DNA of 63,611 bases, the filler included, from Stramenopiles sp. TOSAG23-3 (taxonomy: Eukaryota), in the NCBI GenBank assembly GCA_900128585.1. It is 13 parts of 13 records of this genome, joined end to end, with 100 filler letters (N's around TTAATTAATTAA, not from the genome) between each part and the next. Parts side by side here need not be neighbours in the genome. Positions count along the whole stretch, not along the records: positions 1 to 6,468 come from LT643314.1; 12 more parts are not named here. One strand, written 5' to 3'. The translations under genes and the position numbers were made by a program. Positions 2,522 through 55,701 of the stretch are shown here, piece after piece (within the stretch, counting starts at the first letter, position 1; every line of letters begins with the position of its first letter). The notes under the pieces were generated by a model, which did no database searches, had not been told where the DNA came from, and worked only from the letters and a program-made list of their open reading frames with translations.

Positions 2522-2609
2522 ATGTGCAAGCCCACGCTGTCACATTGGCAAGTGAACTCTGCTCAGTATTAATACGCCCACATATTGCTTCATAAGTTCC
2601 TTAACAGTC
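2522..2609 (-). pseudogene. Decayed duplicate fragment of the adjacent ankyrin gene
   Basis: Blocks atgtgcaagcccacg, attggcaagtg, actctgctcagta, tacgcccacat and aagttccttRacagtc are collinear with 3258..3352, with indels. Confidence 0.8.
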
Positions 2610-2796: not shown

Positions 2797-3501
2797 TTAA
2801 ACTCGTGGTAACAGATAAACAATGTCTTTGTTTCCTTCTTCGTTGGCAATGTCCAATGGCGTTTGGTTGCGTTTGTTTTTCATTTTTGTGGACTCAGGAT
2901 AGTTTTGAACAAGGTAGTTTATTAAATGCCGGTGCCCATTGCTCGTTGCAACGTGCAGTAGGGTAAACCCATCGCTCTTTCTTTGCCATGTAATTCCTAG
3001 TTTATTGTTCTCGTGCAAGAATGCTACGACTTTTCTTGCCGCGCCATACTTGACAGCATACGATATAGGCAGTTCCCCGAACCGGTCTAGTTCCGAATAG
3101 CTGTTGCCTGGCTGCAACGCAGCTTGTTTAATATCCTCGACGGTTGTTCTCCGCCATCTCCAGCCGTTCTGGTCGTGCAAGGACTCTACTGTGAGGCGAA
3201 CACCCCCTCGTTTCATTTCGTCTAATATATAATCAATTACTTTCACTCTGGCATTGCATGTGCAAGCCCACGTTATTGGCAAGTGCATTCCACTGTGCGC
3301 ATCTACTCTGCTCAGTACGCCCACATCTTTCTTCGCAAGTTCCTTGACAGTCTTTACGGTCGTGTTGGGCCACTTCTCATAATCGCGGGCGTTCAAAGAC
3401 GTTATCTCCGATCCTCCCCCTGGCCCAAAGAAATTAAACATATGACGAAGTACGAACGGTTGATTCAATGGACCCAACAAACTTTGGAAGGCTGAACTCA
3501 C
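2797..3501 (-). CDS. Ankyrin-repeat protein (5' end uncertain)
   Basis: GELPISYAVKYG, GFTLLHVATSNGH.HLINYLV, NQTPLDIANEEG.KDIVYLL. The ORF starts at GTG inside tttttag|TGAG, which may be a splice acceptor. Confidence 0.8.
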   Translation of the reverse strand: MSSAFQSLLGPLNQPFVLRHMFNFFGPGGGSEITSLNARDYEKWPNTTVKTVKELAKKDVGVLSRVDAHSGMHLPITWACTCNARVKVIDYILDEMKRGGVRLTVESLHDQNGWRWRRTTVEDIKQAALQPGNSYSELDRFGELPISYAVKYGAARKVVAFLHENNKLGITWQRKSDGFTLLHVATSNGHRHLINYLVQNYPESTKMKNKRNQTPLDIANEEGNKDIVYLLPRV

Positions 3502-4569: not shown

Positions 4570-5043
4570 TGCACTACCCTCTCTATTTATACTCAACTTC
4601 AATCGTCGTTCTGTTTCATATGTTCATAATTCCTGTTTCTTTTAATTGCAAGAAGAGACGGGAGAAGCTGAAGAAAAATCAGATGCACTTAGTGTATTAT
4701 TATATCCGAACGATCCGCGGCGTGGGAACAAAAAAAAAGAAGAACACAACAAAAAACAACAGAAGAAAATAATAATGGAAAAGAAGCAAGAAAGAAGAAG
4801 AAGAAGAACGAACGAACAACATCATCCAAAAAAATAATAAAAAATATCAATAATAATATATATAATAAATAACAGGTATACAGGAAGGGTTCGTGGCGAC
4901 GACGACGGGCGTTCTTCTTCTTCTTCTTCAAACTTGGGAAGTGAGAAAAAATGATATAATTTACAAGAGAGCAAACAGGAGAGAGGCTTAAATTAATTGT
5001 GTTAAGTAATATCGATGAACTACGAGTGGTAAAGTAATCCCAA

Positions 5044-5820
5044 TCACTTCTTTTCCGTCTGCCCTCCAGTGGGTTTCGATTGTCTGCGCATGAGAACGCT
5101 GTGGTTGTAAACCCGTGCTATGTTGACTTCGCTAGTTGTGATCTGGTCCTTCAAAAAGGAAAGATCGTTCCGGGTTTCGTCGCTTTTCTCCGTGGCTTTG
5201 ATCAAATTCGCATTTAAGATTTCCCATGCGTCGTCGTAGCAATATTCAAGCATGACGTTTGCCCCGAGCCACAAGTAGACTTTGTCCTCGGGCACTATGT
5301 GAGCTTTCGCCCACACGTTGTCTGCGAGGCTGTAGTTCAAGTCCAGCTCCTTGTCGTCGCCTTTCGCTGCCTTCAAACGATTGATCGCGTTCAGGGTCTT
5401 CTCAATTTCTGGGATCTTCTTCTTGTATTGCTGAAGATTGTAGACTAAATGCTGTTCCATCATCTTGAACTTACTGTATTCTGTTGGCGGGGTGAAAAAA
5501 GGGGGTCAAAACGGTTAGAAGAGGTTCGTTGCGATAGTCGTATTGGTTTCTACTCACCTTGTTGCATTATTTCCAGTATACCCTCTATAAACTGTTTGGT
5601 GTTGAAAAAAAGCGGTTAGGAGTGGTTCATTGCGATGTTCTTAGTGGTTTCTACTTACCTTGTCATTCACGTCTGCGCCATTGGACGTCTCGTCCAGAAA
5701 CTTGTTTACATCTTCGATGAACACAGCCTCCGGAATGTTTGACATGTTGCTCGATTTGACTACTGTGATACCTCCAACCTCGCGTGGTTTGTTCGGGTTT
5801 GGTTTTGCTAACGCTGCCAT
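5044..5820 (-). CDS. PFDN3: Prefoldin subunit 3 (VBP1/PAC10); exons 5820-5659, 5591-5558, 5480-5044
   Basis: Splicing two GT-AG introns gives IPEAVFIEDV...NDK|FIEGILEIMQQ|EYSKFKMMEQ...KIPEIEKTL...KVYLWLGANVMLEY...FLKDQITTSEVNIARVYN in one frame. Confidence 0.95.
5481..5557 (-). other. Spliceosomal intron 2 of PFDN3 (77 nt, phase 1)
   Basis: GTGAGT donor, CTAAC branch point, pyrimidine tract, CAG acceptor; removal restores the frame. Confidence 0.9.
5592..5658 (-). other. Spliceosomal intron 1 of PFDN3 (67 nt, phase 0)
   Basis: GTAAGT donor, CTAAC branch point, T-tract, CAG acceptor; removal restores the frame. Confidence 0.9.
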
Positions 5821-53912: not shown

Positions 53913-55701
53913 ATGTCTGCGCTGTCTGATTACGCAAAATTCGACAAGCTCGAGGTCTCGGACGACGAGGCCGAAGCGGAGAGTGCGCCGTCGCTGACAC
54001 TGTCGAACCGAGGCGAGAGCGTCAAGTTCGACCAGTACGACGCGGTCGAGTTCACGGCCGCAAAGAACATCAAAAAGACACCGTTGTCTGAGATGGGAAA
54101 CGCGGAGTCTTCCGAAGATGACAGCGACGAGGGCCTTATGCCGATATTTAGAGACAGGCTGTCGAAGAAGGCGGTCAACAGCGAGTTCGTCAAGTCCTTG
54201 CAGGCCATTGCGGACGAGGCCACCCCGCTGGACTCGATCGAGTCGTACAAGGACCAGGGGAACGAGCACTACAAGCGCTTGATGGAGCTGGCCCGGGACA
54301 AGAAGGGGCTGAAGCGGGACTTGAAGAAGAAAGAAAAGTTCCAGTACTACCAGCGGACGGCGATTCGTTTCTACACGGACGCCGTTCTCGTGGACATTTC
54401 CGAGCCGAAGACGGAGGAGGGGTTGACGGGCGAGGAGCTGCGCCAGAAGCTCGTCAAGACCAAGGCGCAGGCGCTCACGAACCGAGCGATGGTCCACTTT
54501 CAGCGCGGCAACTTTAGAAAATGCCTTCGGGACTGCAAGGCCGCGCTTCGGCTGTGCCGGCAGGGGGAGGAGAGCGACGTGGCCGGGGACGTCGAGCGGG
54601 CGAATGCCAAGGTGAGCGGGTACGAGGACTACATTTACCGGCCCACCGCGTTGGACTCGACGCGGATGAAGGCGTGCTTCCACGCCGCAAAGGCCTGCAA
54701 CACGTTGCAACGGTACAAGAACAGCCTGCAGTACTTGAAGCGTGGGTTTCGGTGCTTGGGGAAGGTTCCCGTGTTGGGGGAGGGGGGGGGGAAGCCGAAG
54801 AGAGGAAGCTGGAGAAGGAGAGGACGGGCGGCATGGACGCCGCGGCGATTGCGAAAAACAATAAGGCGCTGACGAAGCTGAAGAAAGGTAAGTTGTCCCC
54901 ACGAACTTCTGTTCTCTGCAAAAGAAGTTCAGACTGTTCCGCTCACCACCACCACCACCACGAGACTAACCCCCTTCCTTCCATACTACTCACCCTTCTT
55001 TCTCCCTTGCAGCCGCCACCGCAGGGCTGAAGCGCGAGGTCGAGAAGGCCGTCAAGTTGGCCTCGGAGATCGAGATGATAAAGCAGAAGAACACGATGCT
55101 TCGGGAAGCGTGCAACATTCGGGCGGTGCGCATGGGGCCCCCCGTGTTCGAGTACGGCGCGCAGCAGCGCGGGGTCGAGAGCCCGGTCCTGAGCGACCAG
55201 GGGGAGCTGTACTGGCCCCTTCTCCTGCTCTACGACGAGTCGGCCCAGACGGACTTTATCCAGCAAGTGTCGGAGGGGCACACGCTCCTCGACCAGCTCA
55301 GGATGGTGTTCCCGGCCCTGACGAACAACCAGGCCCCGCCGATCCCATGGGACGAGGAGCGGAAGTATTTCTTGGAGTACGTGGAGGTCTGGTTCGAAGT
55401 GAACCAGGTCCCCGCCTTTGACCCGAAACGGTCGTGGGACGAGCCGGCGCTGCGGCGGGACGTGAAGCCGATCACCCGAAAGCAGGCCCTTGTCGGGAGC
55501 GCGACGCCAAAGTGGGCCAAGGTTCCGCTGACCTGCACCTTGGGGGAAGTGCTCTCGTCGCCGCAATACGTCGTCCCTCAGATCCCCGTCGTCCATGTCG
55601 TGAGCCGGGGGAACCACGGCCGCGCGTCGAACGGGAGCGACAAGTTCTACAGGAAGTGGAAGGAAGGGATGGACGTCGTCCGGTTCGTTCCAGGGAAGTG
55701 A
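53913..55701 (+). CDS. TTC4: TPR co-chaperone TTC4/CNS1; frameshift in the G10 run 54782-54791 and intron 54888-55012
   Basis: DYAKFD.L..SDDE, YKDQGNE.YK, NRAM.HF..GNFRKCL.DC..AL, wheel domain LYWPLLLLYDE..QTDFIQ...PWD. Splicing gives KK|AATAGLKREVEKAVKLASE in frame. Confidence 0.85.
54888..55012 (+). other. Spliceosomal intron (125 nt)
   Basis: GTAAGT donor, ACTAAC branch point, pyrimidine tract, TGCAG acceptor. Confidence 0.88.

What the first reader, a model, noticed from the sequence alone, without database searches (positions are those of the whole stretch)
5481..5658. Twin introns in prefoldin 3: candidate introner-like intron family
Seen: intron 1 begins GTAAGTAGAAACCACTAAGAACATCGCAATGAACCACTCCTAACCG and intron 2 begins GTGAGTAGAAACCAATACGACTATCGCAACGAACCTCTTCTAACCG. 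They match at 38 of 46 positions without gaps, far beyond the splice signals. Both follow exonic ACAAG and end in AACAG. They have different phases (0 and 1) and flank a 34-nt exon that continues into conserved prefoldin sequence. Most other genes here are intronless. Known: introner elements create sequence-similar introns in Micromonas, Aureococcus and fungi. Inference: recent copying of one intron or element into a similar target site. No TIRs are visible, so it may be a non-MITE type or local reverse-splicing-like copying.
Basis: partly seen in the sequence, partly recalled or inferred. Interest (0 to 1): 0.72.

Follow-up and report, generated by a model that had tools for sequence, protein, structure and literature searches.

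The report
Intron copied within a prefoldin gene
Two neighbouring spliced introns in the prefoldin-3 gene of an intron-poor marine protist are diverged copies of each other at positions where relatives have no intron, a clean example of a known but rarely seen way of gaining introns by local copying, not a genome-wide introner family.

Summary
Both introns (67 and 77 nt, around a 34-nt exon) are spliced at the stated sites in RNA contigs from two studies. They align end to end at 55 of 67 positions. Two syntenic relatives lack both, with colinear coding sequence, so both were probably gained in this lineage. The introner reading fails: no third copy appeared in five assembly searches or among 360 candidate introns, and there is no TIR or stable fold. 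Intron-only look-alike pairs are strongly local in this genome: 3 of 264 pairs within 3 kb against 2 of 64,356 distant pairs (2 of 263 without this pair). Best reading: one whole intron was copied 34 nt away, more likely through the spliced RNA (0.5) than by DNA template switching (0.3); neither is shown. The kind is known (fungal same-gene duplications, Oikopleura pairs). This scan had already noted such pairs elsewhere in this genome and in other genomes. What is added here is RNA support, polarity and a genome-wide count.

The parts
5659..5820 (-). PFDN3 coding exon 1 (54 codons), ending in ACAAG
   Evidence: RNA contigs cover it and extend to 5876 and 5896
5592..5658 (-). Intron 1, 67 nt, phase 0, GTAAGT donor, CTAAC branch-type motif at 5619-5615, AACAG acceptor
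   Evidence: joint 5591-5659 in X15 and X16; absent in L026, L027, L028
5558..5591 (-). 34-nt exon 2 (FIEGILEIMQQ plus the first base of E), ending in ACAAG; colinear with the intronless orthologues
5481..5557 (-). Intron 2, 77 nt, phase 1, GTGAGT donor, CTAAC motif at 5518-5514, AACAG acceptor; homologous to intron 1 end to end
   Evidence: (joint 5480-5558)
5489..5511 (-). Imperfect 10-nt repeat inside intron 2 (5511-5502 and 5498-5489) that probably accounts for its extra length
   Evidence: 9 of 10 identical; slippage is inferred
5044..5480 (-). PFDN3 coding exon 3 with stop codon; a poly(A)-like loose end lies at 4974

Best explanation
A same-gene intron duplication. After this lineage split from two intronless relatives, PFDN3 gained one ordinary U2 intron of unknown source. 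A whole copy of it, from GT to AG, was then inserted 34 nt away in the coding sequence without adding or removing any codon, and the two drifted apart. Most likely route: the excised intron, still held by the spliceosome at its own transcription site, was reverse-spliced into nearby single-stranded DNA (an R-loop) or into a nascent transcript, and then fixed by DNA repair or reverse transcription. Shown: splicing, homology, absence in relatives, colinear protein, no close third copy, local excess of such pairs. Inferred: gain rather than loss, the RNA intermediate, the reverse-splicing step. Not resolved: which intron is the donor. I put 0.8 on local copying by any route; the confidence given here is for the RNA route.
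For: Exact GT-to-AG homology with no exon sequence gained. All seven pairwise alignments from the five intron-only groups run end to end; they share 0-2 nt of the next exon, and four of the five groups share only 0-3 nt of the preceding exon, including a 67-of-77 pair in unrelated genes. The unit copied therefore looks like the unit the spliceosome cuts out. Local excess: score >=44 with unshared flanks in 3 of 264 local pairs against 2 of 64,356 distant pairs; Fisher p 7e-7, or 1e-4 without the PFDN3 pair. The introns do not resemble own or relatives' coding sequence (12 tests, lowest p 0.41). L027 and L028 are syntenic genomic contigs without either intron and branch as successive outgroups (support 95/94 and 100/100). 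The R-loop model is published (PMC4540971, passages), and two laboratory intron transpositions in yeast are cited in PMC10996645 (passages).
Against: No intermediate was seen. [quoted passage not shown] Selection would remove imprecise DNA-level copies, so precise ends do not prove an RNA route. This pair shares 5 nt of upstream exon (ACAAG; 38 of 24,976 census pairs share 5 or more, 0.15%), which suits DNA template switching. 19 of 23 closely spaced intron pairs score under 40, so most clustering is not visibly due to copying. Two intron-only pairs lie on different contigs. Polarity rests on DNA from two species only; the closest relatives (P0002, P0126, P0003) are known here as proteins only, and P0003 starts at the same methionine as the gene caller's fragment of this gene, which may mean it shares an intron near site 2.
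Confidence: 0.5

Rival explanations
1. DNA-level local copying: during replication or break repair the nascent strand ending in ACAAG slipped back 101 nt to the other ACAAG, copied the intron, and returned at the AG-ending exon end. Selection retained the one product that splices cleanly.
For: Shared 5-nt exon end, rare among census pairs (0.15%). Both junctions can slide by 2 nt, whereas 20 of 224 census introns follow AG. The site-2 CAACAAG is older than the intron, being present in L027 and L028. Short distance.
Against: Needs two switches that land exactly on both splice sites. The other four intron-only groups share only 0-3 nt upstream and 0-2 nt downstream. The AAG at site 1 is not in L027 or L028 and may post-date insertion. 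No partial or antisense copy of the twins in 625 kb.
Confidence: 0.3
2. A decayed or low-copy introner: both introns are independent insertions of a mobile element whose other copies are too diverged, lost, or in unassembled DNA.
For: Two intron-only pairs lie on different contigs (C4422/C6513, 67 of 77; C760/C3213, 53 of 65). An AG-only target duplication cannot be excluded (PMC passage makes the same point). The assembly has 7,088 contigs and unknown completeness. The strict census may hold under half of the short introns (44 strict against 54 other neighbours).
Against: Only the twins were found by two 3-mismatch patterns. Simulated detection per copy is 0.72-0.87 at 10% divergence from the ancestor, falling to 0.31-0.39 at 20%. 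The next-best census scores to the twins are 39 and 28, against 56 for each other. No TIR; fold energies -0.4 and -4.2 kcal/mol; ordinary length. The only two copies lie 101 nt apart.
Confidence: 0.12
3. Two independently gained introns were later homogenised by gene conversion, one overwriting the other.
For: Clusters of unrelated-looking introns exist here: 8 strict same-strand pairs within 200 nt against 0.12 expected under uniform placement; most close pairs are not alike.
Against: Needs two gains 34 nt apart plus a conversion tract that stops at both splice sites. No remnant of a different intron is visible.
Confidence: 0.06
4. Tandem duplication of intron 1 plus exon 2, with the spare exon copy absorbed into intron 2 (related to the potato RdRp case).
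For: Exon 2 ends in AG and could act as an acceptor. Tandem duplication across an intron-exon boundary is documented (PMC4974935, abstract).
Against: Intron 2 is 77 nt, not 101. It aligns better to intron 1 alone (score 84) than to intron 1 plus exon 2 (65.5). It shows no similarity to coding sequence, and its extra 10 nt are an internal repeat.
Confidence: 0.02

Closest known systems
Same-gene duplications (SGD) of near-identical introns in fungi, non-segmental half (PMC3609843; abstract and passages read)
   Same: Two sequence-related introns in one gene, flanking exons not duplicated, ordinary length and folding energy, no high-copy family.
   Different: A marine protist, not a fungus. Copies are 82% identical. 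Splicing and absence from relatives were tested here. SGDs are 82 of 1,610 duplicated introns in 24 fungi, whereas 3 of the 5 intron-only groups found here are same-gene (small numbers, different method).
Nearly identical intron pairs of Oikopleura dioica (Denoeud et al. 2010; seen only as reported in a passage of PMC3879977)
   Same: Both members of a pair lie in one gene; attributed to reverse splicing.
   Different: Four pairs among about 75,000 introns there, against three same-gene groups among 360 candidates here. The copies here are more diverged, so the thresholds are not comparable.
Introners and introner-like elements (bioRxiv 2022.06.06.494994, PMC4540971, PMC3609843; passages read)
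   Same: Whole spliceosomal introns with shared internal sequence at new positions, leaving the mRNA unchanged. TIR-less and TSD-less families exist.
   Different: Two copies only, in one gene. Not longer or more stably folded than other introns.
Intron gain by tandem duplication across an intron-exon boundary, potato RdRp (PMC4974935; abstract only)
   Same: A new intron beside an older one, inheriting its branch site and acceptor.
   Different: There the donor site comes from former exon sequence. Here the donor and the whole body are intron-derived and no exon sequence is duplicated.

Membership tests
U2-type spliceosomal intron | GT..AG ends with a branch-type motif, removed from mRNA | tested here: met
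   branch use itself was not tested
Same-gene intron duplication (SGD / NII) | Sequence-related introns within one gene | tested here: met
   55 of 67 aligned positions; core z 9.7 against shuffles
Same-gene intron duplication (SGD / NII) | No copies in other genes | tested here: met
   limited to close copies in an assembly of unknown completeness (power)
Same-gene intron duplication (SGD / NII) | Non-segmental type: flanking exons not duplicated | tested here: met
   flank identity 7 of 20 on each side; protein colinear with intronless orthologues
Introner | At least 4 similar introns (threshold read) | tested here: not met
   2 copies
Introner | Copies dispersed in unrelated genes | tested here: not met
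   both in PFDN3, 101 nt apart
Introner (MITE type) | Terminal inverted repeats of 6 nt or more | tested here: not met
   best inverted match 6 of 7, off the ends, score 5
Introner (MITE type) | Target-site duplication | tested here: inconclusive
   only AG is repeated at both junctions, which cannot be told from a target preference
Fungal introner-like element | Longer and more stably folded than ordinary introns | tested here: not met
   67 and 77 nt against a median of 75.5; 98% and 66% of census introns fold more stably per base
Introner | Presence/absence polymorphism or lineage-specific gain | tested here: inconclusive
   absent in two relatives; no within-species polymorphism seen, but contigs drop rare alleles
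Reverse-splicing product | RNA or RNA-DNA intermediate with the intron at a new site | not testable with these tools
   only contigs were available

The most novel reading that the evidence does not exclude
In this intron-poor marine lineage ordinary introns, with no element-like features, seed new introns near their own transcription site by spliceosomal reverse splicing often enough to be a main route of intron gain. Close intron clusters, and perhaps the mRNA-type introns in its tRNA genes, would be older products of the same process. That would make it a natural system for testing whether the spliceosome inserts introns into DNA.
Probability: 0.2. Interest if true: 0.75.

Novelty: new member of a known kind. 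Interest (0 to 1): 0.42.

Why it matters
How new spliceosomal introns arise without transposons is an open question, and cases with a traceable source are few. This one has RNA-confirmed boundaries, empty sites in relatives and an unchanged protein, which excludes exon duplication. Three same-gene groups among a few hundred introns suggest that local copying is unusually visible in this genome, and the species is well sampled in public marine data (20 holding runs, 14 studies), so polymorphic young copies could be sought. Taken alone, the locus is one more example of a described class and not a new introner family.

Tried and rejected
DNA search of the assembly with both introns and the exon: 1 match, the locus itself; this search skips common words, so it is weak evidence. 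Exact 14-mer: 2 matches, the twins. 13-mer core: 8 matches, of which 6 are not introns and share nothing else. Viral contigs: 0 matches to a 22-place pattern. Rfam: one chance-level hit, Histone3 at 14.5 bits against a cut-off of 34. A search for relatives' exon-1 read-through peptides returned only a same-species allele that has intron 1, so the intron state of the closest relatives stays unknown. The MAFFT alignment of window against L027 and L028 was misaligned and is not used; it hinted that intron 2 resembled exon sequence, which a shuffle test rejected. The reversed-pattern control for the intron census exceeded the forward count (366 against 244), so it gives no false-positive rate; the census may hold chance matches, especially among the 138 relaxed candidates. 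Dropped before the intron-only count: 3 of the 8 pairs scoring 44 or more, because their flanks are duplicated too (C159/C2103; two pairs between tRNA-Glu paralogues on C404). The cut-off of 44 was chosen after seeing the scores. With per-pair shuffles, 6 of 111 local pairs reach z of 5 (2 of them the C404 paralogues), against 40 among the 400 top-scoring of 34,869 distant pairs, so weaker distant pairs cannot be told from composition. No end overlap links C4422 with C6513 or C760 with C3213; whether they are neighbours is unknown. One DNA run (X6) barely covered the gene. No supplements were read; the introner family tables of bioRxiv 2022.06.06.494994 could list this lineage and were not seen.

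Full report
1. The observation. The minus strand carries a prefoldin-3 gene: exon 1 at 5820-5659, intron 1 at 5658-5592 (67 nt, phase 0), a 34-nt exon, intron 2 at 5557-5481 (77 nt, phase 1) and exon 3 to the stop at 5044. The spliced 210-aa product matches Pfam Prefoldin and reads the same as database protein P0123. The first 46 nt match at 38 positions as stated; the best other match in the window is 25 of 47. Globally the introns are identical at 55 of 67 aligned positions, and the extra length of intron 2 looks like an internal 10-nt repeat. One contig in each of two RNA runs from different studies skips exactly these intervals; DNA run X13 covers all of intron 1 and 31 nt of intron 2 with no difference.

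2. Relatives. A metagenome scan confirmed 4 loci out of 141 candidate stretches. Three are full matches (L026 and L027, one sequence type at 79% identity; L028 at 76%) and the fourth is a 15-residue hit that I did not use. All three read through both positions with no intron and no indel around exon 2. L027 and L028 also carry a homologue of the neighbouring gene, so they are genomic. In a 24-row tree they are successive outgroups to the window protein. Two gains on this branch are simpler than two losses in each of two lineages, but intron-poor lineages do lose introns and only two species were seen as DNA. The closest proteins are unresolved: P0002 and P0126 read through both sites but may be transcripts, and P0003 begins at the same methionine as this gene's own post-intron fragment. 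Within the species, gene-caller fragments show intron 1 on 31, 14 and 2 contigs (P0121, P0124, P0136), and none of the 6 cluster members suggests an allele with only one intron. The organism is marine; 'stramenopile' comes from earlier scan notes and my recall, not from a test here.

3. Is there a family? Five searches of the 28.4-Mb assembly found no third copy. Simulation gives the two mismatch-tolerant patterns 72-87% power per copy at the twins' own level of divergence and 31-39% at twice that. I then listed all 244 matches to GTRAGT..CTAAC..YAG, fetched their surroundings (625 kb on 195 contigs) and reduced them to 222 strict introns plus relaxed candidates, 360 in all. The twins score 56 with each other; their next-best partners score 39 and 28. 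Other introns share only the splice signals, so this is not a long consensus. The twins have no TIR, almost no fold and ordinary length. The introner criteria of four copies and dispersal are not met.

4. The genome-wide pattern. Of 64,620 pairs, 8 score 44 or more. Three have duplicated flanks and were set aside. Of the other five, three are same-gene neighbours: PFDN3, a gene on C26 with a 67-nt exon between the introns, and an EF-hand gene on C2387 with three related introns in its first codons. Two lie on different contigs. That is 3 of 264 local pairs against 2 of 64,356 distant pairs (p 7e-7), or 2 of 263 without the pair that prompted the search (p 1e-4). The cut-off was chosen after seeing the scores. 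Removing these introns gives open frames (for the first C26 intron this is inferred, because the script took an upstream GT). Their splicing was not checked in RNA. Each group has its own sequence. All align from GT to AG and share little flank. Introns also cluster: 8 strict same-strand pairs within 200 nt against 0.12 expected. But 19 of 23 close pairs score under 40, and 10 of the 23 come from a ubiquitin locus and the tRNA locus, so copying visibly explains only a minority. Earlier AI notes on this genome prompted this census. I recovered what appears to be their cap-methyltransferase pair (C26) and their tRNA-Glu introns (C404), and could not locate their sulfite-oxidase or neighbouring-gene pairs. 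Notes from other genomes describe the same kind.

5. Mechanism. Shown: a whole intron is present twice in one gene with the coding sequence intact. Inferred: one was copied from the other. The end-to-end unit, seen also between unrelated genes with no useful microhomology, points to the spliced intron RNA as the template, and a spliceosome acting near its own transcription site would explain the local bias (model in PMC4540971, passages; discussion in PMC10996645, passages). [quoted passage not shown] I give the RNA route 0.5, DNA template switching 0.3, a decayed introner 0.12, conversion 0.06 and absorbed tandem duplication 0.02. [quoted passage not shown]

6. Known kinds and novelty. This is a non-segmental same-gene intron duplication as classified in fungi (PMC3609843; abstract and passages) and resembles the four Oikopleura pairs (second-hand, from a passage of PMC3879977). 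It works like a TIR-less introner in leaving the mRNA unchanged, but it is not a member of that class. Searches for intron duplication or introners in uncultured marine stramenopiles returned nothing on this point (listings only, 0 papers). The library lacks most subscription papers and no supplements were read. PMC3488318 and PMC4122922 (passages) added only background.

7. Verdict. Real and well supported, a new member of a known kind, not an introner family. Interest 0.42, mostly for the local excess across the genome and because the species is sampled well enough for the mechanism to be tested.

Noticed in passing
G000:C2387:747-1294 (L015, L230): EF-hand (calcineurin-B-like, label recalled) gene with three related introns separated by 14- and 17-nt exons in its first codons; the first intron has an internal tandem repeat of the branch motif and is flanked by a near-repeat of two codons.
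   Followed up: partly
   Followed up: partly
G000:C4422:2972-3048 and C6513:1115-1191 (L231, L232): 77-nt introns identical at 67 positions in unrelated genes on different contigs; both contigs end in AT-rich sequence in an orientation that would allow them to be neighbours, which could not be tested.
   Followed up: partly
G000:C760:8832 and C3213:2595 (L233, L234): Weaker intron-only pair (53 of 65 aligned) between an EF-hand gene and a leucine-rich-repeat gene.
   Followed up: partly
G000:C404:492-1470 (L063): Two tRNA-Glu genes are found by ARAGORN only after five mRNA-type intron candidates are removed in silico; agrees with earlier notes; splicing untested.
   Followed up: partly
   Followed up: no
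census introns: The exon side of the 5' splice site is nearly random: only 20 of 224 GTAAGT introns follow AG, which fits insertion without target preference and relatively young introns.
   Followed up: no
P0002: A close PFDN3 relative whose N-terminus departs from the family just before VEKF, suggesting a further intron or a frameshift at another position.
   Followed up: no
window 54888-55012 (+): A 125-nt GTAAGT..CTAAC..CAG intron candidate in a TPR-type gene (label recalled), unrelated to the twins and too long for the census pattern.
   Followed up: no
window 2548-2602 and about 3305-3352; also many fetched loci: Short intergenic repeats recur locally and across contigs in the BLAST of candidates against fetched DNA; they are not introns.
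   Followed up: no
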